A stretch of DNA of 64,000 bases. It comes from Podospora anserina. Taxonomy: Eukaryota. The notes beneath the pieces were generated by a model. The model was not told the DNA's origin, did not search any database, and saw only the letters and a program-made list of their open reading frames with translations. The stretch covers positions 1,116,001 to 1,180,000 of the forward strand of contig CM030334.1 in NCBI GenBank assembly GCA_017654855.1. Direction: 5' to 3'. Below, one piece after another: positions 5,587 to 34,755 of this stretch (position 1 is the stretch's first letter; each line of letters opens with the position of its first letter). A program made the position numbers and the translations under genes.

Positions 5587-6681
5587 CTAAGCCCTACCAA
5601 CAACCTCCACAACCTCCCCATCCGCCAACCTCCCCGTCTCAAGCATCCACCCCTCCCCCTCCACCTCCACAGGCGGCACCACAATCCCAAACCTCTCATA
5701 CGGAAAATCAACCAGCGTACCCCTATACTCAGCCCACCCATCATCAACCTCCCCAAGCTGGTGCGTGTCCACTTCGCCCGCCTCGTACGTCCGTCCAGCC
5801 AGAACCTCCTTCTCCCGCCCCTCATACTCCTTCTTCAGCATCGGGTGAGGCGCCCAGATAACCCGCATCCCCGCCCGGCGACCAGCCTCAACCCCCGGAA
5901 CGCTGTCCTCAAAGACAAGACACTCCTCGGGGGTAATCGGCTTCTCCCCCTCGGGAAGCGAGTCATTGATCGTCTTGAGGGCAAGCAAATAAATATCAGG
6001 AAGCGGCTTGCCCCGGCCGGGGGCAATCCGCTCGTCGTCGCCCAGGACGCGACGGTGGGTTTCAAAGACGCTGAACAGCTCCGTTAGGTGCGACGTCTTC
6101 AAGATAAAGTTTGACTTGTGGGACGACGTGGCGAGGGCGATGTGGACGCGGTGGGGGGTGGGCGCCGTCTCGCCAGCCCTGGACTCCTTGTTCTTCTCCA
6201 TGTCCCAGTAGCGGGTGCGAGCGAGGTCACTGAGAAGTGTAGGGATGCCGGGGAGGGGCTGGGTGCCGGGGAAGTGCTGGGCTTGGAGCTCATAGTACTG
6301 TTTGTGGTACCTGCGTCGAAAAAAAAGTCGGTGTCAGAACGGACCGTCAGGAAAGGATACATCACTCACTCCTCGGGGGTGATCGGCAGCTGGGCCCAGT
6401 CGTGAAGCAGCTTGTTGGCCTGGGGACCGGGGCGGCCTTGCAGCTTGGCCTTGATGCTCCAGGGCAGCTTGGGACGCCCGTACTTTTCGAGGATCAGGTT
6501 GATGCAGAGCGTGTAGAGGTCCTCGGTGTCGAGCAGCAGACCATCCATGTCAAAGAGACAGGCCCGGACGGGGGGGAAGCTGTTGTTGGAGGGAATCGTT
6601 GTTAGTCTCGCCACGAGGCTGGACCCGGCCGGAATCACACAACATAGGGGTTCAGGGGACCTACTCGGTTCTGGGAGTCAT
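5587..6681 (-). CDS. HAD-superfamily hydrolase (GS1-like / HDHD1 pseudouridine-5'-phosphatase family)
   Basis: Motif I ACLFDMDGLLLDTE, IALATSS, GKPLPDIY, CLVFEDSVPGVEAGRRAGM. Start MTPRT at 6681; two introns. Confidence 0.9.
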
Positions 6682-7743
6682 TGTGAAGGCCGTGGCGTGC
6701 TGTGAACTGGGACGACCGTGGGCTCGTATCTGCTGGATGGACTAGAAAGAAAAAAAAGACAGGAGGAGGCTCTGGGGGAAAGAAAAGGGCTCGTATTATA
6801 GATAGATGGCTACCCTTGCCTAGGTAGGCGTAGGATCGATCGGGTCCAATCAGGCACGTGGGTTAGAGTAGCTGACAAGATGTAGTCACAGAGAAGCCAA
6901 CTGCTCTTTGAGGTTGGAGATAAGACGGCGGACCTGCCCTCTTGTTGGATAACTTGTAGGGATCAGAAGGAGAAGGGAGCGCAACAATCGGATCCGAAGC
7001 AACGAAACAAAAAAAAAAAAGGCAGGAACTAGATGTCACGAATTGGAGTAGCTACCCCTTGTCATGCGGGGTACCCCCCCAGCAAACTGATGCTCTTCCA
7101 GTGCTCCTCCCGGCGGACCTGTGACGCCACCAAGACAGGGGAGACATGTAGATACCCCGGCCGGCCCAGCCAGCAGAGAGCCGTCACGACTTTTTCCGAA
7201 GCTCTCGTTCGTCGAGAGCATCCGAGAGAGGAGCTCTCTGTAATGCTCTCACACACTCTCAAACTCTTGTCCGGCGGAATATTTCGGGCCGTTTAGGTAC
7301 CCCTTGCGATGGGCTGGGTTGGCAGCCGAGGAAGACGCGAGATAAGGGGGGGAACTTGTGGGAGTGTGGAAGGTGTGATGAGATTGTGGAATGTTCAGAC
7401 AGACAGAATGAGAAAAAAGCCGTGTGTTTGCTTGTTTGCTCCCCTCATCAGGGGTCCGTCCCATCTCGAGCGGACACCAAGCGGCAGGAAGCCGTTGCCG
7501 TCTCCACAAAGCCTCAAAAAAAACCCAAAAAAAAATGGCCTTGGATCAACGTGAATCTGCCAAGACCCCGCCATCGGGCTGAGGTCTACAGTAGCGCCTC
7601 AAGAAAAAAGTGTCCGCTCCATGCCCAAAGCCCCAACAGCGTAACAACACCACGTTTCCAGCTCCGCCCCTTTCCCCTTTTTTCTCTCCTGTGAGCAGCC
7701 TCCTTATCTCGCATATCGGACGGACGGTTTGCTGCCAAAGACG

Positions 7744-8647
7744 ATGGCTGCCCAAGATGAGGAGCCCCGGATCGCGGGAGCCGATGACGACATGGAGCAG
7801 CAGCGGCATGAAGAAAGGTTCCCCCCTGAAGAGGAAGCTGTAAGTCACTGTGGCCCTCATTTCCGTTACCATGCTCAACTCAGCTCTGACGGGACGTTTG
7901 TTGCTTTTCAAGTCCATGGTAGCGGACTCCAACGCGCACAAGACCGAGGCCAACTCTCTCTTTGGATCGGGCAAGTACGACATTGCCATCAACAAGTACG
8001 ATGAGGCTCTTGCCGTCCTTCCCAACTATCTGGACTATGAGCTGGCCGTCTTACGATCCAACATTGCTGCCTGCCACCTGAAGCTCGAAGAATGGAAGGA
8101 GGCCGTCACAAACGCAACAGCCGCCCTGGACTCTCTTGACAAGCTCGAGGGCAACGGCTCGTCGAAGAAGCAGGACCCCACCCCACCCGCGGCAGAAGAC
8201 GAGGTGGAGGGTGAGATTGTCAGCTCTGGTGCCAAAGCAGCCGGTCCGGCACTGGGTGATGACGCCCAGCGCAAGCGTCCGGATGATATCTCGAGAATCC
8301 GCGCCAAAGCTCTCATGCGTCGTGCTCGGGCCCGGAGTGAGCTGGGCGGGTGGTCCAACCTGGAAGGCGCAATCGAAGACTACAAGCGGCTGTCGACCTT
8401 GCCTGCCTACGACACGCTGATGAGCGCGACGGATAAGAAGATTGTCAGCACGCAACTCCGCGCCCTGCCGGCTCGTGCAAAGGCTGCGCAGGAGAAGGAG
8501 ACGGCTGAGATGTGGGCCAAGCTCAAGGACCTGGGCAATGGCATCTTGAAGCCGTTTGGCCTCAGCACTGACAGCTTCAAGATGGTCAAGGACGAGAAGA
8601 CGGGCGCATACAGCATGAACTTTGCTGGGGGGTCGGGCGGCAAGTGA
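7744..8647 (+). CDS. Tetratricopeptide repeat protein (TTC1-like)
   Basis: TPR helices (KTEANSLFGSGKYDIAINKYDEAL; AVLRSNIAACHLKLEEWKEAV; KALMRRARAR) and TTC1-type C-term LKDLGNGILKPFGLSTDSF. One intron starting gtaagt at ~7840. Confidence 0.85.
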
Positions 8648-9017
8648 GGGTGAAGCTGTAGCACGCAGAGATAATGTTTATTCAGTCTAGCTCTTGAGAC
8701 ATCCATGGGTCTTTGCATGTTGGGTGGTGGTGCCTGAATCCACCCACGAGCAGGTGCGGCTGGAACCTCGGAGAGTATGGCTAGGTACCCAGACGTCCAT
8801 GGCAGCTTCTGCTAACCTGCCGCATAGGTGTTCGGTGCCTTCCTGGACAGCTCACTTCAAGGAGGGACATTGATCGTCTGCCCAAGAATCCAAACTCTTC
8901 CCAACTTTTGTCATCAAAGCTCTTGTTCATTCCCATTCACTCTCCAAACAACTCTCCAGTGCAGTCTCTATCTTACAGCACAGTCTCTATCTCAGTCACC
9001 CCAGACATTAATCAAAA

Positions 9018-9830
9018 ATGGAGTCAAGAGCGCACCATCTCCATTACCTCCAGCGCTACGTGGATGTCGACCACTGGCGCCCATACATCACCACCAGATA
9101 CCCCGAGGAGATCCAATCCGGGGATGCCCGCGAATTTGAATACGAAATATTGGGTCAGGACGCCGGCCCGCGACCCATCCCAGCCTTCCCCGTTGGCAAC
9201 CTTGACGAGCTCGACATGCCCCGGAAACTCATCATTTTCTAGGTGAGAAACGGCTTCCGCATTCCGGCGTGGATACCCGCTGCCAACCCCGAACTCCAAC
9301 CCGGCGTCGTCACCGACGACCACATCCGAATGGCCTGCATCATCCTCATCCAGATGGCGCCCGACCTGGCGAGGGAAATCCCCAGACGCTATCTCGAGAT
9401 CCAGTCCATACTCGACAGGGGAATAGAAAGCAGCAGGAGAAGGGTCCTCACGGAGGAACGTGTCGCCGAGTATGCCCCGCAGGATTGGACCGCGTCCCCC
9501 GACGAGGGTGGGCTCAAGATGGAGGAAGAGCACTTGCCGGATGTGTACATGAGGATTCTGAGGACGTTTGAGGCTGCGGACGGCAAGGATGGGCCGTTTG
9601 GGTTGTTTGCGGATTTGTATCCCGGTGTTCGCGAGCATGACATTATTCCGGCTCCGAAGTGGCCTCGTTGTCTGGGACATTACATTTTTGACCGGGTGGC
9701 GCAGCGGAAGGTGACGGATCAGAGGCGTGACGCGTGGGCTGCCGGGAAGTTTGAGAAGAGTCGTGCTGCGATTGCTGCCGAGAAGGCTGCCACTGAGGCG
9801 GAGGCTGCCGCGCAGCAGCAGCAGCTGGAG

Positions 9831-9871
<41 letters not shown>

Positions 9872-9947
9872 GCAGAAACCCCAGAGAAAGAGAGACAAAA
9901 TTATTAGTATGATGCAATATGGCGCCCCGAAAGCACCTCTACCATGA
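9018..9947 (+). CDS. Orphan protein with C-terminal poly-Gln, interrupted by one in-frame TAG (9240-9242); 309 aa if read through
   Basis: ORFs 9018-9242 and 9243-9947 are contiguous and in the same frame. Good start context (caaaaATG) and coding-like codon usage on both sides of the TAG. Confidence 0.75.
9813..9875 (+). repeat. CAG/CAA trinucleotide repeat encoding Q4-LE-Q15
   Basis: Directly visible in the sequence. Confidence 0.95.
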
Positions 9948-10833
9948 TTAGATGCCGAGTGGGAGGAGTTGTTTTACTCGGAAGCGATACATGTATCTTT
10001 CTTGTCACAGCGGAATGTTTAGGTGGGAGAGAATTTAGGATCGGGCTAGGGGAGAATGGAACATGTTTTGGTTGACGCTCTTTTTCTGATTTGAGTCTCT
10101 TGGGCTTGGTGTGTATGGATACCTTACCTACCATCTTGAAACCGCTCTGCTTATGAGGCATCTCGGAATACCTTTAGACTCTATAGAAACCTTTGTTTGA
10201 GCGCCGTTACATCAGGCAACAGTCTTTAATTTTCTCTTTCTTTTTTTTTCGGGGCTTTATGCGTGTTTTTTTTTTAAAAAAAAAAGAGGTGTCCGTTACC
10301 AACGTCTGAGAGGTGGTGTTGATGCTGAGCAAAGGATTCAGATTCCGACGTCGAGAATTGGAACACATGCTTAGAAACATGCCCTGAAGGCGAGTCGGAC
10401 TTGTCGGGCTGCTTCACACATGTTCAAAGGACTGGCTATATTAAACAGCAACACAAATAAAACCCAATAGGAGATGTATTGTCTGTACAAAGTACAGTAA
10501 AGAGCAGTGATGATCTGACAAGAGAAACCCCCTTCCCACCCCAAAACTCCAATACTATTTCCTGCTTGTTGCTGCTGTCGTTGTAGAGTTAGATACAATC
10601 TTTCTTTGTTGGACCACGCTTTTTCTGCAAGATATGACAAGACACCAAGGGAGAGAGCGAGCAGACAAATCATATCCATCCATCATCAACAAACTAAAAA
10701 GCAGAAAAACAAAACAATCCCCCCCTGCCTACCTACCCATGTGTTATTTCCCTTTCATATATCCCATCCCATTCCATCCATTTCATACAAAAGAGAGAGA
10801 GATCGATCAGTCATGTCTTGACTCCAGGGCTTT

Positions 10834-11554
10834 TTAAACCCTCCCATAAACATTCACCACCCCATCCCCCCAAATCCCCACAACCGACATGAAGAACCCC
10901 AGTCCCAAGACAGACACCTGGACAACCTGCTTCTTGAGCCACCCCTCCACCTTGGCCCTCACCTCCTCCCCGTTCGCCTCCTCCCCAACCTCCAACACCT
11001 CATCCTCCTCGCTCTCTTCCTCTTGCTCTTCACCAAGGACCTCGTAGCTGGCTTCCATTCTCGCGCGGGCAGAGGCAGAGGGCTTCTTCTTCTTTTGCTG
11101 GGGGAAGGACTTCTTGCTGCCGGCAGTGGTGGCGGGGGAAGAAGGTCCGAGGGAGATGTAAGGAGCGACCAAATCCGTCACGACGAGCTGGGAGCCGAGG
11201 ATGAGGGCCGAGGTGTAGAGGAGGTAGGGGTGGCGGAGGGGTTTGGGGGAGAGATAGTATGCGAGGAGGAAGGCGGTTCCGGAGAGGCCGGAGAGGGATC
11301 GGAGTTGTTTGGTCGAGGTTGTGGTGAGGGAGTCAAAGGCGCGGAGGGCTGTGGTGGCGGAGGGGAGGTTGAGGAGGGAGGGGATGGTGAGGGTTGTTAG
11401 GGTGTAGGAGAGGCCCTGGTTAGTGAGCGTCATGTTAGTTGCTGTTCAAGGTGAAGGCATCATGCGATGCCATGTGGAAAGCAACACATACCGTCAACAA
11501 CCCCAACGACACCGTCCCCACAAACTTGAGCGCCGAGACGCCCCTCGTTGCCAT
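10834..11554 (-). CDS. ATG33: Atg33-like mitochondrial outer-membrane mitophagy protein
   Basis: Spliced N-term MATRGVSALKFVGTVSLGLLT|GLSYTL, RHPYLLYTS, NGEEVRAKVE, C-term SVVGIWGDG. One intron (~11418-11491). Confidence 0.7.
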
Positions 11555-11991
11555 GATGTTACGAGTGTGTGCTTAATCTCTTGATCAATCCAGTCTCACT
11601 TCCTTATCAAAACGCGCGGATGGCCGTCGAAGGTTCGAAAGGTGTCACCAAGTTTGCCTGACGCAAAGTCGTGGTCGTAAGAAGCCAGTGTTGCCGAGCT
11701 CACGGTTAAAGCTTAAGGTCTTGCCTATTGCGTGGTTGGACAGCCCGCCCGCCCCGCCGAAAGGAGGGGATGGGGGGCTGGATCTTCTTGGTCTGGCCCC
11801 GCTGCAACTCACAGCGGCCCATTTCCACTTTTGCGTCATCGCTCGATCAGATTAACAAGGGGTAGCTGATAGAACACCCTAACCCTGATTCAAGATGGAA
11901 GACCACAGAAGAAGACATCCTGCAGATATCCACCCCCCGATGCAACTTGTTTCCCAATATCCGCCACCCCACCAACATCCACTATCGTGAA

Positions 11992-20772: not shown

Positions 20773-23700
20773 TTACCCCAGCCCACCGCCACTGGTTGGA
20801 CTGCCCGGATGATACCCAACCGTCCTGAGAACCCCCTGCGGTCTTGCCCGATCATTATTCAGGAAGTACTGGATCGACTTGTTCCCATTCTCTTCGCGAA
20901 GCTCAAAGATGCCACCTCCATTCACCTCGTTGCCTTCAGTCTCGCAGATCATGAGCAGCTCGTCGAAATTTACCGGGGGTCCGTTGATGTGCAGTCGGTC
21001 AACCTGGGCTTTGATGTCCGCCAGTGGGATGAATCCCGTTCGCCCCTCGGCCGCTTGAGTGTCATGCTCACCTAGGTCCTCGCATGCCTTGCGCATCATC
21101 TTGCGGAGAGTTAGGTGGCGTGGCTCAGTAGGCCGCTCGAGAACACCTGGTATGCCAAAGCTGGCTCCTGGAGGGGGACCCCATGAGGAACCTACTGGGC
21201 TAGGCACGCCAAAGCCAGGAGGAGGTCCTGGGGGGAAAGGATGCGACTGAGGTGGCATGCCGAATGGTTGCGGTCCCCAAGGGTTTGGATGACTGGGGAA
21301 CATGGGGTCCATTCCAAAAGCACCAAATCCTCCAGGTCGTGGCAATGATGATGCGGTTGGGAATCTCACCGGACGACCAGCAAAGTCGATCGGGTCATCT
21401 CCGTCATCTAGTAGGGCACTGCTTCCCAAGTGCGTGTCCGGATCATTCCTCGAAAAGTCCCTAGAAGGGGAAGAGCTTGACGGTCGTTGGCCATGGACAA
21501 CACTGGCTGGGCGTCCTATTGGTGTCGGCTTTGAGATGGGTTGCGGTCCGCCACTCTCATGACTGCCAGAACCTTGGCGGGAATGCGTGGTACCGCCATT
21601 GCTTTGCATACCTGCCGGCCCCATCAGATGAGCCATTGGAGGGACAGGCGAGTCCAACGGTCCGGGAAAGCCAGGCGGGTGATGCTGGTGTAGTGGAAAT
21701 CCTCGGTTAGGACCAGGACCGCTTAGTCCAGGAGGCATTGATACAATCCCAGGAGGAGGTCTAAAGGCATTCATGGGTGAAAATGGTGGATCACGATGCA
21801 TTGGACTACCAAATCCAGGTGGCGGCATCTGGCCCAAGCCAGGAGGAAACGGCATACTGCCGCCGCCGCCCATGGGCATACCAAACGGACTCGGATGCAT
21901 CGGTACTGGCTTGCTGGGCTGCGCGCTCAAAGGTGACGCAGCGTGTTGTGATGCTTGCCCGCCGAATAGGTTTGGACCTGTGAGTCCCGACTTACTTGGT
22001 GGGCCAATGGGGCCTGGACTAGCCTGTATCGGCGTCAGGGGATGAGGTGATTGACTATGGCTCGGAGCGACCCCGGGTGGAAAACCAACACCTGATGTCT
22101 GGATGCCTGAGCTTTCCTGCTGAGAGGGCTGACGAGGACGAACTGGTGTAGGGGCCATCGGCAAGGCTGGTGTAGCTACCGTGATTAGTGGAGACGCAAA
22201 TGAAGCTGACGACTGCGCCAGAGCTGGAATAGCTGTCGCAGACTGCTGGGCTAGACGTTTGGGAAGCGTAACAGAAGGGGCCGTTGCAGCAGCAGCAGTC
22301 GCCGCAATAGCTGCAGCTTTTTGAGCTGCCCTCTCTTCCTTTTTGCGCTTCTCCTTGGTCTCCTTGGCCTGTTCTCTAGATTCACGCTCTGCTTTGGCCT
22401 TGGCCTCCTTCTCACGCTTATCACGCTCTTGCTGTTCTCGTCTTTCACGAGCTTCTCGCTCTTTCTGCTCCTTTTCCCTGAGTCGAGCCTCTTCGCGCGC
22501 CTTTTTCTCGCGTTCCTTAGCCTCACGAGCTTTGCGTTCATTTTCTTCTCGCTCGTGAATCTTGCGTTGTCGCTCAGCCTCCTTGCGTAGCCGTTCCTCC
22601 TCTTCAGCCTTCTTTTGAGCCTCTCTTCGCTTCCGCTTCTCCTCTGCTCTCTGCTTCGCCTCGGCCTGCTTGCGTTCTTCTTCCTCTTTACGCGCGGCTT
22701 CTTCGGCAGCCTTTTCGGCCTCCTTGCGAGCTTTCTCCTCAGCTAGAGCTTCCTTCTTCCGGGCCGCTCTATCTTTGCGTCGCTGGGCCTCCTTGGCCTT
22801 CTTGGCTTTGCGCTGGGCATCTTGTTGGTTCTCAGCCTCAATCTCCTCCAGAAGCTTGGCTTGACGCTCTTTGGCAACCTTCTCCCGATAGGCTGTGAGT
22901 ACTCGCTGCTCAAACATGCGAGCAGCAAATATTTGGAACATCCGACGGCCCTCTTCCATGCGCTGCTCATCAGTCATGGGATCCTGTCCACCCATATTAG
23001 AATTCTGCACTCGAATGGGCCAGGAAAATCACAATTGTTGCCATACCTCTTCCTCTTCTTGGCTGTCGTACTCCTCCTCGTCTTCTTCATAGTCCTCATC
23101 CTCTTCATAGTCCTCCTCCTCGTCATCAGGATCGGGCGGGGGGTGGCTGTGGCTGTAGCGGTCGCCATTCGTGTGCTCGTAGTCTTGCTCACCAGGATGC
23201 AGCACCCGCTCTTGAGTGGCCATGCGCCGCTCGGCAAGCTGTTCCATCATCTCAATGAATTTTCTACCGTCATTTTTGAGCAAGTCGTCGGCCACGGTCA
23301 GGATGCCGCCTATAGAAGAGGAGCCATAAGCGTTATTGCCAGTCCCTGCATAGGGATAAGTCTGTAAAAAGGAGGGAAGTATGGGAAGTCTGTCCCTACC
23401 CTGCACTGTCAGGCTATTTCCGAAATTGAAGAAGTCGGAAGCGTATTCGGTTCGGTGCAGTTCGGATGGGTCGTGCTCATCGTCGCTGTATTCCTCGTCG
23501 TCTTCTTCCTCATCCTCCAACTCTTCTTCGCTGTACTCCTCCTCCCCCTCTTCCCCTTCATAGTCGACTTCCTCGCCCTCGACTTCCTCGCCCTCGCCTT
23601 CTTCATCCTCGTCAGCATCGTCGTCGACGTGCTCCAAAATTCGACCGTGAGATGGTTGATGGGTGTATCTCGGCCCGCTTGGAAGACCGTGTGGTAGATT

Positions 23701-24597
23701 AGGTGGGATAGACGAAAAACTAATCGAGTGGTGGCGACTAAGTAGTGAGGAATTACTGGTCGTATGAGGATGGTTCGCATAGTGCTCCAGTTCTTCATAA
23801 TAGGCGTCATAGAGCCCTTCCAATTCTTCCTCAATCGCCGTCCTTTTCCTCCCGCAAACCGAGCAACTGCAAGTTTGCTTCTGCTGCTCCTTCATCTTCT
23901 TGAGAACCGCATCTTTTTCGACCTTGACTAGGTTCTTGCGCTGCACCTCGTCTAGTCCTAGCCAGAATTCCTTGATTCGCTCCCGCTCCTCTTGAGAGCT
24001 GGTGTTCCAAATCTTTTCCTTCGACATCCCTCGGCCGTTGATATGTGACGTTGGTGGGGGACGGTGATCAACGTGGTTGCCATTCACCGACCCGTCAGCA
24101 CTCGCCCCTGCAGCATTATTGTTTTTCTTCTTCTTTTTTTTCGCCTTCTTCGATTTCGCAGGCTGCCCGTTAGGAGTCCCGTTTGGAGGTTGTTGGTTTT
24201 GGTCTCGAGAGTCTTGACCGGCATCCGCTTCCTCTTCGTCCTCGTCTTCATGCTGTTCGACATCGGCCGAAGGTTGGCCTTGAGGTGGCTGTGGACCACT
24301 GCGAGTCCCATTTGAAGGCTGACCAGTCTGTGCTTGCTGCTGTTGCTCAGCAGCGGCCTTGGCCGCAGCCTTTTCGCGCCTTTTCTGCTTCTTCCTGTTC
24401 ACCGCTGGTGGAGCAGGTGGCGCCGGGGAGGCACATGTTGGAGAAGGTTGGGAAGATTCTACGGGCGTGCTGCCTTTAGGTACTGTGATGAACTTGGAAC
24501 CATCCTTGTTGGTGTACTTGGCTGTCCCCTTCGCCGAGGGCGACTGAGAAGCTGCACTAGCAGCAACTGGCGGGGCCGGGTTCCGATTGCCCTTCAT
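20773..24597 (-). CDS. NST1: Stress response protein Nst1
   Basis: [94 protein letters not shown], then a charged coiled coil and Pro-rich C-term. Intron gtatgg near 23046. Confidence 0.92.
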
Positions 24598-27180
24598 CGT
24601 CACCTAGTTCAATGCAACCTGAAGTAGATAAGTGACGAGGACATGTAATGAGATGGTCCCTTCGTGGAGTCGGCGAGTCGGATATGGCACGTGTCTGAAA
24701 GAGAAAAGCCGTCGTAGAACTAAGTGATTTGCTAGGTAAGCATAGGTAATGTCGAGGGGGCACAAGGTTCGGATTGTGTCAAGGTTCAAACGGTCGTTGC
24801 TCGAGGAGCTCTTCTGTCCTATTAGGTTGGTTGGGGGCAAGGGTAGTGTGATTCGATGGGGTGGAAAGAGCAAAACTGTAGTAGCGACCCAAAGAGCGAC
24901 TTCGTTCGATTGTCGGTTGGGGAAATCAAAAGGGAGTCATGACTAGGCTCGGGGGCCGTCGGGGGCAGGGCAGGGTTGATGAGGGTTAATTGACGGAGGG
25001 GTCGACCACTCACTCTCACTTCAGGGTCCTCCACTGGCAGACGCTTGGGGTGTTGAGAGCTGCTAGATGAGAGCGCGAAAAAGGTGGCGGACGGAAGAGG
25101 GCGCGGGGTGGTAAAGACGCGACTCCGGGGCTCAGCGCGGGACAGGATGCAGGCCGAGAGATGTCGTGCGCTTCGGAGGTGATCAAGTTGTTCGGATGTT
25201 CAAGGTGCTCCTAGATTGCTTAGATTTGTGGTCCCGGCCCTGGAACTCCTCCAGTGCGGGCGCGCTGCCCAGAGCTCCCCGCTCCTATTGGCCCACCTGC
25301 TACACGTGACCTCAGCCTTGCTGTGTCGCTCCTGCCCTGTCTTCAATTTGCGACTTTAGATTTCCCGCTCCTCCCTTCAGCCGCGAAGAGAACACGACAA
25401 AGTTTTCATAGTACGGCTCATATTCTCCGCTCAATGGTTGTATGCCGATACAATCCTTCATACGGTAGTTTTGGCAGGCACTCCCGTGACCTAGTGCCAT
25501 CAACCATCAACTAGACCTGTTCCCATTGGAGACTTGGGGCATATGAAATGTTGGGAGATCTCCCATCCCATCTGCCACATGACACGCTAGCTCGAATCTG
25601 TACCTATGTTCCTTTGCTGGTAAATACGATGAACCAAGAAATTCGTGAACTCCAAGACGAGATGAACATCCATGACATGGATGCGATATGCCAACAATAA
25701 TAGCTGGAGGTCTCCAGCTTATTACCTTATTTGGTACCTCTGAAAGGGCGCTCAGGGGCTAGGCTGTGAGCAATGCCGTCATCGCCACGTTAGGGCAGGT
25801 TGCTATAAGTGAGTGGGGGGAGTCGCGTGTATTGTGATAACCTCTAGTCATTCCTACGGCCGAGCATCATCATCATGCCCATCACTTGATAACACTTACT
25901 CCGTTCATACTCTCCACCCATCGCAGCTTCCTGTTGACCAGCAATGCTTCGAAACAAAAATAGGCGCTCGATTCGAGAGCAAATGTCGACCCTTAAACGA
26001 TTTCCATGTGGCTTTCTCCCGGGCCAGCGGTACCGGTGGAAGCTAGATCTCTTGGCCTTCAAATGCAAGCGATGCCGCATCCGCACCGACTGCGATTGTT
26101 CACGATCACAAATCTTTGCTGACCTACCCCTTTCGAGTGCCAACCGACCTGTTTCAAACACACCCTTGGCGGCTTCCTCTGCTCCACAGCTTCTTAGCAC
26201 AAGAACCATATCATGGTGTAACAGACACCGAAGAGCTAATCTGTCTTGGCGCCATGACCATGATACATTGTCTTCTCTCCATAATCACAACCTCGTTTAC
26301 ATAGGTAGTCAAGAATAGCTGATCCGGTCCAATGGAGCACTCCAGCTCCGTCAGCCGCTCCGTTCAAGGTGCCATGATTCGCGTGGGAGGCCGTATCGGG
26401 TGCGTATTGAGCATTGATGTCGTCGGGTACGAAGTTGTGAAAGGTGCACAGCCTCAGGGTCGCCCGCCTGCCCCCCCAGAGTTCAGCGCCGGTCGCCAAC
26501 GGCTCAGTAGCCTATCAAAGCCATGGTGTGAGCATCCCGCGGCCGTTACGGCCCACTCGTCACTCGCGTCTCCCACGCACGGAGGAAGTTTGCTTTGGCC
26601 GAGTTGGGCTGTTGTGTGTGGTCTGTTTGGGTGTGCTGAGGTGTCTAGTCAGTCACCTAGTCTGAACAGATGTTTGATCCAGGTAGACTAGGTATTGTTG
26701 CTCGGTGCGTTCGGATGATGGTTTGCCAGTGACGACAGGAGTGACAGTTAAAATCGAACGGTGCTGTCGGGCCTGCTGGGCCCAGCAACTGGGGGAAAGT
26801 GGGGCATGGCACATCGTATCGCGCCCCAGGGCCGGCCGGGACGAGACGCTGCCAGTGGGAAGCTCCAGAGGCTAAACAGGGGGTCTGTTGGCGTGTTGGC
26901 GTTATGTAATCAGGCCTCAAGCCGCTATCAACCCATTGTTTCCCCTCGAAATTTCCTGGGCCACCGCTTACTGCTGGCCATGCATCCATACTGTGCCGGC
27001 TTCCTTTGAAAGGCGAGCGGTCAGCCAGAGCAGTGTGCTTCTCTTATTTCTCTCCAGTTTTCGTCCATCCGCGACCAATTCAACCCCTTCCCGAACCCAT
27101 TGCGCACAACGAACGAGGCCCCAGAGCGAGACGACGCTCCTCCGATTCCCCCTTCCTCCTATCCCACACATCTGCCAACC

Positions 27181-31089: not shown

Positions 31090-32059
31090 TTTAAAGCATA
31101 GATAGTCCCTCTCTATTCATCCTCTCTGTGTGATGCTTAAGCAGAATGTCGAAATTGGTACCAGATGCATCTTCGAGTAAAGGGATAAACGAATTCCACT
31201 CAAGTTAATACGAGCGAAAGCCCCAAATATTGTTCTTTCGCAGCTTGTAAACCACCAGGAAGCCGCGGCATATGTATCCGTCGCTGTTGAGGTCTGGCAA
31301 ACTGCTATAAGCTGGGCAGGACGAACCTTTGGCGTGATCATAGTCGTCTCGTCCCAAAAGCCGACAATCTAAGTTTCCACAGCTCAGACAGATATTGCCG
31401 ACTTAGCTGATTTGATTCTGTCTCAGCCTCAATCCGATCCGCTCAAGTTCGAATAGAAGCGATTGTTACTGGACAGCCGGATTAAAAGCCAATAGAGAGA
31501 TAACCATCTCGAAAATTGCCGGCAGGACTGCGTACATGAACCGCCGAAAGTAATGTCTGGAAAATTGCTGGATTTGGCTTTCGTACCTCAGGCACCTCTT
31601 GAGAGTGTACCTGATCTTGGGGTTCTTTGCTACCCGGAAGACGTGGTCGCCGGGCTGGTGTCCCGTGAGCCGGATGTCTTCTCGAAAGATAGCAGCGACT
31701 TTTGCGCTTCGAATTCGAACTCCTTGGATGTGAACGGAGAAATGTGAGATCTCATCGCCCACACGCGAAAGACCGTCTTCCAGAAGAACATTGCTGGCGC
31801 TGGCGTACTTAGCTCATTCTCGCGAGCTACCTCGCACGACTACACTGTAAACTGGTGAGCCTGAACCAGGCTGGCCCAGCGTGCGGAGGCGTCTGTTCGC
31901 TGCAGCGACATCCCGGTGGCTGTTGTTGCTGTTATTAATGGTATTGATTCTGTTACTGCTGTTGGTGCTGTTGCCGGGGATCCTGTTATTATAGGTGATC
32001 GTGGTTGGTGCTGGTCGTAGGGTTGTTACTTGCTGGTTTGTACTGTGTCTCTTGTCATA
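31090..32059 (-). pseudogene. Possible decayed gene remnant next to the transposon
   Basis: Coding-like stretches (e.g. ...LEWNSFIPLLEDASGTNFDILLKHHTERM) broken by stops and frameshifts; no homology recognised. Confidence 0.2.
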
Positions 32060-32098
32060 CAGGATTGAATTTAAAAGTCAAAGGCTTTGAGGAACATA

Positions 32099-32151
32099 AC
32101 GTGCATGATAAGCGAGCGACGCAGATAAGCGAGCGACGCACTCTCCACCAC
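32099..32151 (+). repeat. Left terminal inverted repeat (two 17-bp direct repeats GATAAGCGAGCGACGCA)
   Basis: Reverse complement of 33908-33960. Confidence 0.95.
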
Positions 32152-32188
32152 CTTACTATAACTATCCTCAATTGCTAGACCACAACAT

Positions 32189-33861
32189 TAAGAACCAACT
32201 ACAATTACGTCAGAAACAGCTGAATCAGACCCTTCTGCAGCCTCCTGGCAAGTGCGGGCATTATGGCCAGGCTTGCCGCACACACCACAGCACTGAACCT
32301 TCGTACGAGCCCCCCCTATACTACCGCCATCCGGCTGTATTTCTTCCACTGCCTCCCCACCCACGGCCTTCTGGTCCAGTAGATCCTATGCATCTTGCAC
32401 AGTAAGTGATCCTCCGAGTCGTACACGTGTTTTTTTAGCTCTCCGGCGCTTACTTAGTGCCTCATTGGCCTTGCGGAGCGAAGCGTTCTCTGACTGAAGG
32501 AGGGCTACTTAGTGTATTACAGTTATCGTACCCTTAGTAAGCTAGTCTATAGTAACTAATATCGAGGTCGGGGAGCTATTTTAATAGTTAGTAATACGAG
32601 TCTTAATAAACGTTAACTATAAATTAGTTTCTCGGGAGTTTTATAATATTTAAAATACTTAAGGTAGTACCATGCCCGGCCTTAAGAATAAGGGTATTAG
32701 TATACGAAGCTTTATATTTAGTTTAGAAAGTACCCTCTTTGGATTATATAGTATAAGGCTAGTACCCGTAAAGCTACCCTATATATTTTTCTCTATTATA
32801 AAAGCGAAGAAAGCTTCGCGGAAAGTATAAAGAAACTTAAACTTACTTACATAATTAATATATATATATATTAAGCCCTTAATTTAGCAGCCGTACGCTT
32901 ATTTTAACGGCCTAAAATAATTAATATTAAGTGGCTAGAGGAAGTGAGAGGAGTATAGAGGTATATAAAGTATAATAATATTATTCTATTAATAGTAGCG
33001 CTCGAATTTAATTAAGTAGTAACTTTCGTAATTATCGAGGATTAATAACCGGTATTTACCCTTCGTATAGGACGCTATATAATAATTAAAATATTTAATT
33101 TAATTTAGGCCTACCGGATTAATAGTTTAATTATTATCGGTAATTACGATACGTTAAATAAATAATAAATTATATTCGGTATATTAATTAATAAAGTAAT
33201 ATTATATAATTAAAATAATAAAAGGTAAAATAGTTTAGCCGAGGGTATTAACTTTTTAAATTATTATTATTTATTTATAATTATTAAGTTAAGTTAGTTT
33301 TATTTTATTAAAGCCGTCCGAAGTTATAACTATTATATTTACGAAAATAATATTTATTATAAACTTAATTTCATTAAAATTATAAATATTATTATTTATA
33401 ATACTATACTTAGCCTTAATATTCCGTACGAATATAAACCATTTAATAATAACCTTTAAATCCTTATACTTAGCCCTTTAGTAGTTATATTTATATGTAA
33501 AACGCGTACGGAACTATGGCTAGCGTTTAACGAAGTTATAGGCCTAGCGTTTACTAATAAGAGGCGCGTTGCGTACGCGTAGTAGTTAGTTAACTATATC
33601 TTCCACGCTACTTAATTTAGGTAGGAATGCGCGTGTAAATAGCTTAAGGACGTACTGAACTATCGTCTTCTCCTCCAGATCCGTTAAATTACGTAAGTTA
33701 ACTAAAATATCGCGTCGCATTAGTCGGCCATTACGCCTATAGCGGAGGGTTGCTTCTGGGACGTTATATAACTTGGCTGTAGTACGGATACTAAGATCCT
33801 CCTTATTTTGAATAGCTTCGAGGGTAAAAAGAAGTCTAGCTTCTTTTGAAGGGCCGTCCAT
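32189..33861 (-). pseudogene. Pogo/Fot1 transposase pseudogene (HTH_psq, DDE, C-terminal CCHC knuckle)
   Basis: N-term MDGPSKEARLL..LSIRTTAKLYNVPEATLRYRRNG; C-term RCGKPGHNARTC-type knuckle; central part very AT/TpA-rich with many stops. Confidence 0.9.
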
Positions 33862-33907
33862 GGTTGTTGGTGGTGAATTGTAGTAGAAGATATTTAAGAG
33901 ACGTGTT

Positions 33908-33960
33908 GTGGTGGAGAGTGCGTCGCTCACTTATCTGCGTCGCTCGCTTATCATGCACGT
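33908..33960 (-). repeat. Right terminal inverted repeat
   Basis: Reverse complement of 32099-32151 with one C/T difference. Confidence 0.95.
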
Positions 33961-34755
33961 TACCGTTTTTATTTAAAAAATAAAAATAAAAAAAGACTGA
34001 AACTAGAAAATCAGAGTATACGATGGACTTTAAGGTAAATATTGCTTTTGAGAACTTCAATGCTAGTAAGCTCTGGAACATAAGTATTAAGTTTGCAATA
34101 CAATGCTAGAGTTGCTTTCAGAGCCTGAGGTAAAATGACCCCACAGCCAGTCCCGGTGACCAGTTTTTGGTCCGTTTCGGTTTTGTCATGGATTCACGAC
34201 GACAACGTGGGTAAGATACTTCACCAAAGCCGATTTTCAGCGCCTTCTGTTAAACTGTGCTAGCAAGGACATCGAGGATGAAAATGCCCGGTTGCGTTGA
34301 CTGTGTTGTTTGAATTGATGTAGACCATGAGGAACGCATCTTTTCTTTCCTTGAAGTGACCGGCTCCATCCGAACACTTCAAAACCAACTAGATACCACT
34401 AAATGAGAAAAAGAAGAGGTTATCTTCTAGAGTAGCTATAATATAAAGCCAAATGTTCGGTGCCTCTAGGCTATCGAGCAGTGTCAAACTTTTCATGACA
34501 TCAAGGGATATTGTCAAAACGACTCGACCACTTCGTCTGTGGGAGTATAGATGTGGGAAACGGGCTTGCTAGAACTCCCTCAAACAGCTTGATCTGCTGA
34601 TAGCTAACTCTTTGTAGGTAATCAGTGTTAGATGGAAGCCAGGCCGGCAACACCCAGACGAACCTGCCTGCCCCATTGTTGCCTCCGTAACCAGGGGAGA
34701 CGCGAAACCAAGCTTATAAGATTGTGTTTGGTTCCACATAACAACAAAACAGACA

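What the first reader, a model, noticed from the sequence alone, without database searches (positions are those of the whole stretch)
9018..9947. Orphan gene with a single in-frame UAG in a hairpin loop: candidate A-to-I editing-dependent gene
Seen: a 74-codon ORF and a 234-codon ORF are contiguous in one frame, separated only by TAG (9240-9242, ...ATT TTC TAG GTG AGA...). No other stop or frameshift occurs over 930 nt, and TAG to TGG gives a natural-looking KLIIF-W-VRNG. The A at 9241 has U at -1 and G at +1. It falls in a loop in both small hairpins I can draw (CTCATC 9228-9233 with GGTGAG 9242-9247, or TTTCT with AGAAA). Established: Sordariomycetes such as Fusarium graminearum and Neurospora perform ADAR-independent, sexual-stage A-to-I mRNA editing that prefers UA(G) in hairpin loops and restores premature UAG stops to Trp (e.g. 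PUK1). Such genes are often mis-annotated with a spurious intron. Here the only short intron that removes the stop (9192-9242, 51 nt) has a poor donor (GTTGGC) and no CTRAC branch near the acceptor. Inference: an undescribed 309-aa polyQ protein made only in fruiting bodies, with a 74-aa truncated form otherwise.
Basis: partly seen in the sequence, partly recalled or inferred. Interest (0 to 1): 0.85.

Follow-up and report, generated by a model that had tools for sequence, protein, structure and literature searches.

The report
Transcribed Podospora gene with in-frame TAG
A small, poorly conserved fungal gene carries a stop codon where a relative has tryptophan, and its messenger RNA keeps that stop, so it is either repaired by sexual-stage RNA editing or is a freshly broken gene.

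Summary
ATG 9018, 74 codons, TAG 9240-9242, then 234 open codons to TGA 9945-9947. The window is from the Podospora anserina species complex in Sordariales.

New evidence:
- The gene is not a full orphan. Two annotated proteins run colinearly across the stop: Cercophora samala at 45% identity and Triangularia setosa at 34%. T. setosa has Trp exactly at the TAG.
- In 4 of 4 RNA runs, contigs cross the TAG unspliced with the genomic A. A canonical intron, 8775-8827, lies upstream of the ATG.
- A9241 sits in a stable hairpin loop and has 5 of 6 preferred editing-context bases. Only 68 of 1166 TAGs in the window have both properties.
- The part downstream of the stop is no more diverged than the upstream part.

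The editing itself could not be tested. No sexual-stage reads were available, and contigs hide minor variants.

Best reading (about 0.5): a premature-stop gene restored by sexual-stage A-to-I editing, a kind known from Fusarium graminearum (71 genes). Main rival (about 0.4): a young, unrepaired nonsense pseudogene. If the best reading is true, this is a new member of a known kind.

The parts
8775..8827 (+). Canonical 53-nt intron upstream of the start codon (GTATGG donor, CTAAC at 8812-8816, AG acceptor). It lies either in the 5' leader of this gene or in a read-through transcript from the upstream TPR gene.
   Evidence: A GT..AG joint 8774>8828 is present in 4 of 4 RNA runs. The motifs were read.
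8828..9017 (+). Transcribed leader with no ATG; 9018 is the first ATG after the intron.
   Evidence: Contigs start at 8828 in 3 of 4 runs.
9018..9239 (+). N-terminal 74 codons. The 74-aa product is on record as P0002, from Logan assemblies only (35 contigs).
9228..9247 (+). Hairpin with a 6-bp stem (CUCAUC/GGUGAG) and an 8-nt loop (AUUUUCUA). A9241 is the last loop base.
   Evidence: It is the MFE structure in 4 of 4 context sizes.
9240..9242 (+). In-frame TAG. It aligns with Trp in the Triangularia setosa homologue. A9241 is the candidate editing site (context C U A G G U G).
   Evidence: It is present as A in RNA contigs of 4 of 4 runs.
9243..9947 (+). Downstream 234 codons plus the TGA stop. 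Homologous to P0003 and P0004 up to about residue 225 of the read-through protein, followed by a lineage-specific tail.
9813..9875 (+). CAG/CAA tract encoding Q4-LE-Q15 (a disordered tail absent from both homologues).
   Evidence: read laying skipped 9800-9883 as a repeat.

Best explanation
This is a lineage-restricted Podosporaceae protein gene in which an ancestral Trp codon (TGG) became TAG by a G-to-A change. The locus is still transcribed, and the mature mRNA keeps the UAG.

The most likely mechanism is the known fungal 'premature-stop-correction' (restorative) A-to-I editing. During perithecium development the Tad2-Tad3-Ame1 deaminase converts A9241 to inosine. A9241 sits at the 3' edge of an 8-nt hairpin loop, with U at -1 and G at +1 and +2. 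The ribosome reads UIG as Trp and makes the 309-aa protein, which has a conserved helical part of about 225 aa and a polyQ tail. Outside the sexual stage, translation stops after 74 residues.

Shown here: the gene structure, transcription, retention of the UAG, Trp in a homologue, the favourable cis context, and the taxon.

Inferred, not shown: the editing event itself, its stage specificity, and any function of the full-length protein.
For: 1. Homology runs across the stop without an intron. A phmmer search of 1.84 billion representatives gave 5 hits at E <= 0.001:
- One hit is the window's own 74-aa ORF.
- Two are real homologues that span the stop colinearly: P0003 (query residues 5-225) and P0004 (query residues 17-228).
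- T. setosa reads RIVEYWVQYGIRRP against KLIIF*VRNGFRIP here.

2. The UAG is in mature RNA and is not spliced out.
- In 3 of 4 runs one contig covers 8828-9799. In the fourth run a contig covers 9113-9799. All have 0 other letters and 0 gaps.
- No joint lies inside the gene.
- The same runs show 5 canonical intron joints nearby, so they are RNA.

3. The cis features match the published preferences.
- Preferred bases are -2 C/U, -1 U, +1 A/G, +2 G, +3 A/G, +4 A/G (PMC9600606 section 6). Here 5 of 6 are met.
- Over 62% of edited sites lie in hairpin loops predicted from +/-30 nt (PMC9600606 section 7). A9241 is in such a loop.
- In this window 240 of 1166 TAGs reach 5 of 6 preferred bases, 353 of 1166 lie in hairpin loops, and 68 of 1166 (5.8%) do both.

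4. There is no sign of decay downstream.
- 234 codons are open and the coding GC pattern is kept.
- Identity to the two homologues is 46.4% and 33.8% downstream against 41.8% and 32.3% upstream. The two homologues are 33.6% identical to each other over the downstream part.
- There is no RIP signature at the gene.

5. The taxon is right. The window is from the Podospora anserina species complex, Sordariales. Editing is described as a common feature of Sordariomycetes (PMC10776026 passages; PMC11087585 passages).

6. The profile fits known cases in F. graminearum.
- There are 71 such genes: 43 encode hypothetical proteins, 50 of 71 have disordered regions, and 16 of 71 are also abundant outside perithecia (PMC10776026 section 6).
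- Their TAGs derive mainly from TGG (section 9).
Against: - No A-to-G was seen. All four RNA runs show only A at 9241. They are contigs, which drop minor variants, and their developmental stage is unknown, so this result is weak in either direction.
- No intact or edited version of the protein turned up in any protein search.
- The family looks dispensable and fast-evolving. Only two homologues were found among billions of proteins, at 34-45% identity.
- C. samala lacks the four residues around the site, so ordinary gene loss is plausible.
- An intact downstream frame is also what a very recent nonsense mutation would leave.
- The transcript is joined by a spliced intron to the region just behind the upstream gene's stop codon. 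Part of the RNA could therefore be read-through rather than a dedicated mRNA.
- Editing has not been catalogued in Podospora in the papers I could search.
- The cis preferences come from Fusarium and Neurospora, not from this genus.
Confidence: 0.5

Rival explanations
1. A young unitary pseudogene, or a gene now shortened to 74 aa. A TGG-to-TAG nonsense mutation inactivated a dispensable, fast-evolving gene. The mRNA is still made, but the full-length protein never is. Any editing at the site would be incidental and without function.
For: - Only A at 9241 in 4 of 4 RNA runs.
- The family is patchy and weakly conserved: 2 homologues only, at 34-45% identity.
- The Trp region is deleted in C. 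samala.
- No annotated protein for this locus came back from any species of the Podospora complex, although six named species of the complex have proteins for another gene of the window.
- TpG-to-TpA is the commonest kind of fungal point change (own knowledge).
- Part of the transcript may be read-through from the upstream gene.
Against: - There is no second lesion in 234 codons, and no excess divergence downstream.
- The stop is the one nonsense codon that a single favoured edit turns back into the ancestral residue.
- It lies in a hairpin loop with 5 of 6 preferred neighbouring bases, a combination found at 5.8% of the window's TAGs.
- The organism belongs to a class where such stops are known to be tolerated because they are edited.
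Confidence: 0.4
2. Translational read-through of the UAG. The ribosome sometimes inserts an amino acid at the unedited stop, giving low levels of the long protein at all stages.
For: The downstream frame is open and conserved, and the mRNA carries the UAG.
Against: The codons after the stop (GUG AGA) do not resemble the read-through contexts I recall, UGA-CUA(G) and UAG-CARYYA. Those contexts are recalled, not taken from any call. Nothing here points specifically to read-through.
Confidence: 0.04
3. A condition-specific intron, for example 9192-9242, removes the stop in some stage that was not sampled.
For: TTTTCTAG at 9235-9242 looks like a good acceptor, and 29 frame-keeping GT..AG intervals exist.
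Against: - No joint lies inside 8828-9799 in 4 of 4 RNA runs, while 5 neighbouring introns are seen spliced.
- The only short candidate has the donor GTTGGC, and 0 of 29 candidates have a CTRAY branch motif.
- Both homologues are colinear through this stretch, and T. setosa has Trp at the site.
Confidence: 0.03
4. Sequencing or assembly error: the genome really has TGG.
For: None found.
Against: The A is present in independent RNA contigs of 4 runs from 4 studies. The 74-aa ORF was called on 35 contigs.
Confidence: 0.01

Closest known systems
PSC ('premature stop codon correction') pseudogenes of Fusarium graminearum: PUK1, AMD1, FgAMA1, FgRID and others. There are 71 genes restored by sexual-stage A-to-I editing (PMC4817773; PMC10776026).
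   Same: - A single in-frame UAG in an otherwise intact, transcribed ORF, not removed by splicing.
- The ancestral or homologous residue is Trp.
- U at -1, and the base lies in a hairpin loop.
- A hypothetical protein with a disordered region.
- A Sordariomycete host.
   Different: - Editing is not demonstrated here, and the stage of expression is unknown.
- The host genus has no published editing catalogue that I could find.
- The gene was left unannotated rather than annotated with a spurious intron.
- The family is far narrower, with three members seen.
CHE1 of F. graminearum: a conserved premature stop edited in vegetative hyphae under oxidative stress (PMC11169179; abstract seen in the search listing only).
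   Same: A premature UAG in a transcript that is present outside fruiting bodies.
   Different: No evidence of any hyphal editing here: 4 of 4 RNA runs show A.
Ordinary unitary pseudogenes made by one nonsense mutation.
   Same: One disabling stop relative to homologues, in a dispensable-looking, patchily distributed family.
   Different: No second lesion, no extra divergence downstream, still transcribed, and the stop has the type and context that the host class is known to repair.
The hypothetical proteins KAK0670258.1 (Cercophora samala) and KAK4172020.1 (Triangularia setosa).
   Same: Homologous over about 210 residues on both sides of the stop (E = 5e-34 and 2e-15). No Pfam family in either.
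   Different: They have uninterrupted frames, no polyQ tail, and only 45% and 34% identity.

Membership tests
Fungal restorative (PSC) A-to-I editing target | In-frame UAG inside an otherwise intact ORF, kept in the mature mRNA | tested here: met
   Contigs cross the site unspliced in 4 of 4 RNA runs. No plausible intron exists.
Fungal restorative (PSC) A-to-I editing target | A-to-G difference between RNA and DNA at the stop, in sexual-stage RNA | tested here: inconclusive
   4 of 4 RNA runs show A. They are contigs that drop minor variants, and their stage is unknown. No further read-laying was possible.
Fungal restorative (PSC) A-to-I editing target | Host is a Sordariomycete with the Tad2-Tad3-Ame1 editing machinery | tested here: inconclusive
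   The taxon criterion is met (Podospora anserina complex). The machinery genes could not be checked because no genome is held. Editing is reported as common in the class, but I found no Podospora catalogue.
Fungal restorative (PSC) A-to-I editing target | Cis preferences: U at -1, preferred bases at -2 to +4, hairpin loop | tested here: met
   5 of 6 preferred bases, with +3 U depleted. The base is in a hairpin loop in the +/-30 nt fold. 68 of 1166 TAGs in the window do as well on both counts.
Fungal restorative (PSC) A-to-I editing target | Sense codon (usually Trp) at the site in orthologues | tested here: met
   Trp in T. setosa; a 4-residue gap in C. samala. So the criterion is met in 1 of 2 homologues.
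Fungal restorative (PSC) A-to-I editing target | Full-length protein needed in sexual development (TAA against TGG alleles) | not testable with these tools
   This needs genetics in the fungus.
Unitary nonsense pseudogene | Disabling lesion relative to intact homologues | tested here: met
Unitary nonsense pseudogene | Relaxed constraint: further stops, frameshifts or faster divergence after the lesion | tested here: not met
   234 codons are open. Downstream identity (46.4% and 33.8%) is not below upstream identity (41.8% and 32.3%). This does not exclude a very recent lesion.
Programmed stop-codon read-through | A known read-through-promoting context after the stop | tested here: not met
   The stop is followed by GUG AGA. 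The reference motifs are recalled, not taken from a call.
Gene with an intron covering the stop | Spliced junction removing 9240-9242 | tested here: not met
   No joint inside the gene in 4 of 4 RNA runs, while 5 neighbouring introns are spliced. Splice signals are weak.

The most novel reading that the evidence does not exclude
A very young, genus-level restorative-editing event in a genetic model fungus. In this reading a Podosporaceae-specific gene acquired TGG>TAG within the Podospora lineage. It now acts as a two-state gene: a 74-aa product or none in mycelium, where the mRNA is already present, and a 309-aa polyQ protein once the sexual-stage deaminase is switched on. Intact relatives are at hand (Trp in Triangularia). 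That would allow a clean natural test of the 'harm-permitting' against the 'adaptive' view of restorative editing, outside Fusarium.
Probability: 0.3. Interest if true: 0.55.

Novelty: new member of a known kind. Interest (0 to 1): 0.4.

Why it matters
- If the edit is real, this would be a concrete premature-stop-correction gene in Podospora. I found no published editing-site catalogue for this genus in the searchable library.
- Crosses, knock-ins and staged perithecia are routine in this fungus.
- The gene is young and narrowly distributed, and a close genus still has Trp. That makes it a useful case for asking whether editing merely permits nonsense mutations or is selected for stage-specific protein production.
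- Whichever reading is right, the locus is a transcribed gene or gene relic with a spliced upstream intron, and current protein sets do not contain it apart from the 74-aa fragment. This is an annotation point.
- If the edit is absent, the locus is an ordinary fresh pseudogene of little interest.

Tried and rejected
- No RNA holder listed. The look-up of sequencing runs listed no holder on record as RNA. I laid four rows marked 'RNA?', and their intron joints show that they are RNA.
- X18 has no listed contig over 8777-9112. A part without cover is no finding.
- No whole genome is held for the window.
- Word-index protein searches found little. With the read-through protein, none of 5015 candidates scored, and polyQ words may have swamped the list. 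With the 74-aa ORF, only the ORF itself was found, 1 of 1 candidate. With the 3-sequence profile lacking the polyQ, only the two known homologues were found among 2831 candidates.
- P0005 (1593 aa) and P0006 (1054 aa) are long internal-repeat proteins that match 30-60 residue stretches many times. I treated them as spurious and left them out of all alignments.
- Pfam: nothing significant for either half (best E = 0.068, below the cut-off) and nothing for the two homologues.
- PDB profile search: nothing (best E = 0.4).
- The AlphaFold2 model from the 3-sequence alignment had mean pLDDT 51.6. That is too poor for a fold search, so none was run.
- The metagenome scan with the two homologues returned one locus, L001. 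Its tblastn match (34.7 bits, split over two frames, no match to P0004) is a chance pattern hit.
- Earlier scan notes held nothing on this genome and only unrelated cases by words.
- RIP as the cause of the stop: the gene has no RIP signature (TpA/ApT 0.39, (CpA+TpG)/(ApC+GpT) 1.48).
- The script flagged a second one-TAG ORF pair on the minus strand, with the TAG at 24604-24606 (plus-strand coordinates, converted from that script's reverse-strand output). It is just a 5' leader in front of the ATG at 24597.
- Paper PMC5604002 (Neurospora editing) is not held, so I cite nothing from it.

Full report
WHAT IS IN THE SEQUENCE

- An ATG at 9018-9020, in the context AAAATGG, opens 74 sense codons.
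- TAG lies at 9240-9242. The same frame then runs open for 234 more codons to TGA at 9945-9947. The TAG is the only internal stop.
- The tail encodes Q4-LE-Q15 at 9813-9875.
- Both halves show the GC1/GC2/GC3 pattern of coding DNA in this frame: 0.65/0.37/0.72 upstream and 0.63/0.46/0.71 downstream. The neighbouring gene has 0.60/0.46/0.74.
- Two long ORFs abutting in one frame is not remarkable in itself. The window holds 14 such pairs in its six frames. The case therefore rests on the further evidence below.

WHERE THE WINDOW COMES FROM

No whole genome is held. An exact look-up of 8 long ORFs of the window found 3 in the protein collection. Two of the 3 clusters have named members from Podospora pseudoanserina, P. 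comata, P. pseudopauciseta, P. pseudocomata, P. bellae-mahoneyi and P. anserina S mat+ (locus tags *_303170 and PODANS_3_3200). The window is therefore from the Podospora anserina species complex, Sordariales. This is the fungal class in which sexual-stage A-to-I mRNA editing is described as a common feature (PMC10776026 passages; PMC11087585 passages).

THE GENE IS NOT A COMPLETE ORPHAN, AND HOMOLOGY CROSSES THE STOP

A full phmmer scan of 1.84 billion representative proteins, using the read-through translation, gave 5 hits at E <= 0.001.
- One is the window's own 74-aa ORF (P0002). It is known only from Logan assemblies, on 35 contigs.
- Two are true homologues. P0003 is 227 aa at 45% identity and covers query residues 5-225. 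P0004 is 253 aa at 34% identity and covers query residues 17-228.
- Two are long internal-repeat proteins that match short stretches. I discarded them.

P0003 is a hypothetical protein of Cercophora samala, and P0004 is a hypothetical protein of Triangularia (Podospora) setosa. A profile search without the polyQ found only these same two among 2831 candidates. None of the three proteins has a Pfam family or a relative in the PDB.

In the alignment both homologues run colinearly through the stop. T. setosa has Trp at exactly that column (RIVEYWVQYGIRRP against KLIIF*VRNGFRIP). C. samala has a 4-residue gap there. The simplest history is TGG to TAG on the lineage of the window. The gap also shows that the Trp is not indispensable in this family.

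THE RNA EVIDENCE

The runs are RNA. They carry canonical intron joints in the neighbouring genes:
- 6309-6367 in 3 of 4 runs
- 6580-6664 in 2 of 4
- 7840-7912 in 3 of 4
- 11415-11490 in 4 of 4

Across the candidate gene, one contig covers 8828-9799 in 3 of 4 runs, and a contig covers 9113-9799 in the fourth. Each has 0 differing letters and 0 gaps. No joint lies inside the gene. It follows that:
- the locus is transcribed;
- the UAG is present in the mature RNA;
- it is not removed by splicing under these conditions;
- it is not an assembly error.

This agrees with the sequence signals. Of 29 frame-keeping GT..AG intervals of 40-400 nt that span the stop, only 9192-9242 is shorter than 100 nt. 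Its donor is GTTGGC, and none of the 29 has a CTRAY branch motif.

It has a GTATGG donor, CTAAC at 8812-8816 and an AG acceptor. It lies upstream of the ATG, and no ATG lies between 8828 and 9018. The joint's depth is roughly half that of the downstream contig: 13.1/25.3, 9.6/13.2, 14/22.2 and 4.2/9.8. The upstream exon lies within 130 nt of the stop codon of the upstream TPR gene (ORF ending at 8647). The transcript therefore either starts inside that gene's 3' region or is partly read-through. Contigs cannot tell which.

WHAT THE RNA EVIDENCE DOES NOT SHOW

All four runs read A at 9241. They are assembled contigs, which keep only the major variant, and their developmental stage is not known to me. 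The result therefore neither supports nor excludes an edited fraction in fruiting bodies.

IS THE SITE A GOOD EDITING SUBSTRATE?

Published preferences for the Fusarium editing system are -2 C/U, -1 U (the strongest), +1 A/G, +2 G, +3 A/G and +4 A/G (PMC9600606 section 6). Over 62% of edited sites lie in hairpin loops predicted from 30 nt on either side, and more stable hairpins are edited better (PMC9600606 section 7; PMC4817773 passages). About 9% of UAG and UAA triplets in cDNA are edited in F. graminearum (PMC4817773).

- Around A9241 the bases are C U A G G U G, which meets 5 of the 6 preferences. Only +3 is a depleted base.
- The hairpin CUCAUC/GGUGAG with an 8-nt loop is the minimum-free-energy structure in all 4 of 4 context sizes, and A9241 is its last loop base. 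For the 31-mer z = -2.2.
- Among the 1166 TAGs on both strands of the window, 240 meet at least 5 of 6 preferences, 353 lie in a hairpin loop, and 68 (5.8%) do both.

The site is thus a clearly better than average substrate. The preferences were defined in other genera, and this is a likelihood argument only.

IS THE DOWNSTREAM PART DECAYING?

- There is no second stop or frameshift in 234 codons.
- Identity to C. samala is 46.4% downstream against 41.8% upstream. Identity to T. setosa is 33.8% downstream against 32.3% upstream. The two homologues are 33.6% identical to each other over the downstream part.
- The gene carries no RIP signature, unlike the AT-rich block at 32-34 kb.

There is therefore no sign of relaxed constraint. 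A very recent nonsense mutation would look the same.

WEIGHING THE READINGS

For restorative editing:
- The codon is the one nonsense codon that a single favoured edit returns to the homologue's residue.
- The substrate features are good.
- The frame is intact and the RNA is made.
- The gene matches the profile of the 71 Fusarium cases: 43 are hypothetical proteins, 50 have disordered regions, 16 are also abundant outside perithecia, and their TAGs derive mainly from TGG (PMC10776026 sections 6 and 9).

For a plain pseudogene:
- The family is tiny, fast-evolving and patchy.
- The Trp region is deleted in one homologue.
- No intact or edited version appears in any protein set.
- Only A is seen in RNA.
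- The species complex is so uniform that an intact downstream frame says little.

I put restorative editing at about 0.5 and an unrepaired nonsense allele at about 0.4. Read-through, stage-specific splicing and sequencing error share the rest.

COMPARISON WITH WHAT IS KNOWN

If real, this is a further member of the known class of premature-stop-corrected genes of Sordariomycetes, not a new mechanism. It differs from the described cases in three ways: the host genus, the narrowness and youth of the family, and having been left unannotated rather than given a spurious intron.

I found no catalogue of editing sites for Podospora.
- The search found 20 papers holding the three search terms. I read passages of two of them.
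- The sexual time-course preprint mentions only the expression of deaminase genes.
- The annotation paper does not use the word 'editing' in its main text.

VERDICT

Interest is moderate. A single RT-PCR on perithecial RNA would decide it.

Noticed in passing
window 8775-8827: A canonical 53-nt intron (GTATGG...CTAAC...AG) is spliced in 4 of 4 RNA runs. It lies between the stop codon of the upstream TPR gene (8645-8647) and the ATG at 9018. The joint's depth is about half that of the downstream contig. It may be a 5'-leader intron of the candidate gene or a 3'-UTR intron of a read-through transcript. Upstream ATGs lie at 8674, 8705 and 8717.
   Followed up: partly
window 32001-34000: An AT-rich block (GC 0.356) with RIP-type dinucleotide indices (TpA/ApT 1.52; (CpA+TpG)/(ApC+GpT) 0.53). 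It is probably a RIP-mutated repeat.
   Followed up: no
window 9884-11671: A highly expressed minus-strand gene with an intron at 11415-11490 (CT..AC). In one run it ends near 10441 (a T9 loose end, which is a poly(A) tail on the minus strand). In two other runs its contig runs on to 9884, so convergent 3' ends may overlap the candidate gene's 3' UTR.
   Followed up: no
window 7678-8647: The upstream plus-strand TPR-repeat gene has an intron at 7840-7912, spliced in 3 of 4 RNA runs. Its depth is about 1.2 to 2 times that of the candidate gene in each run (ORFs).
   Followed up: no
window 10224-10293: Long T and A homopolymer runs in the shared 3' region, skipped as a repeat by read laying.
   Followed up: no
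window 20776-22995 (minus strand): A 740-aa ORF whose exact sequence, and 5 close variants of 734-740 aa, are on record only from Logan assemblies. No member of the cluster carries a name, so this may be another unannotated or variable gene of the species complex.
   Followed up: no
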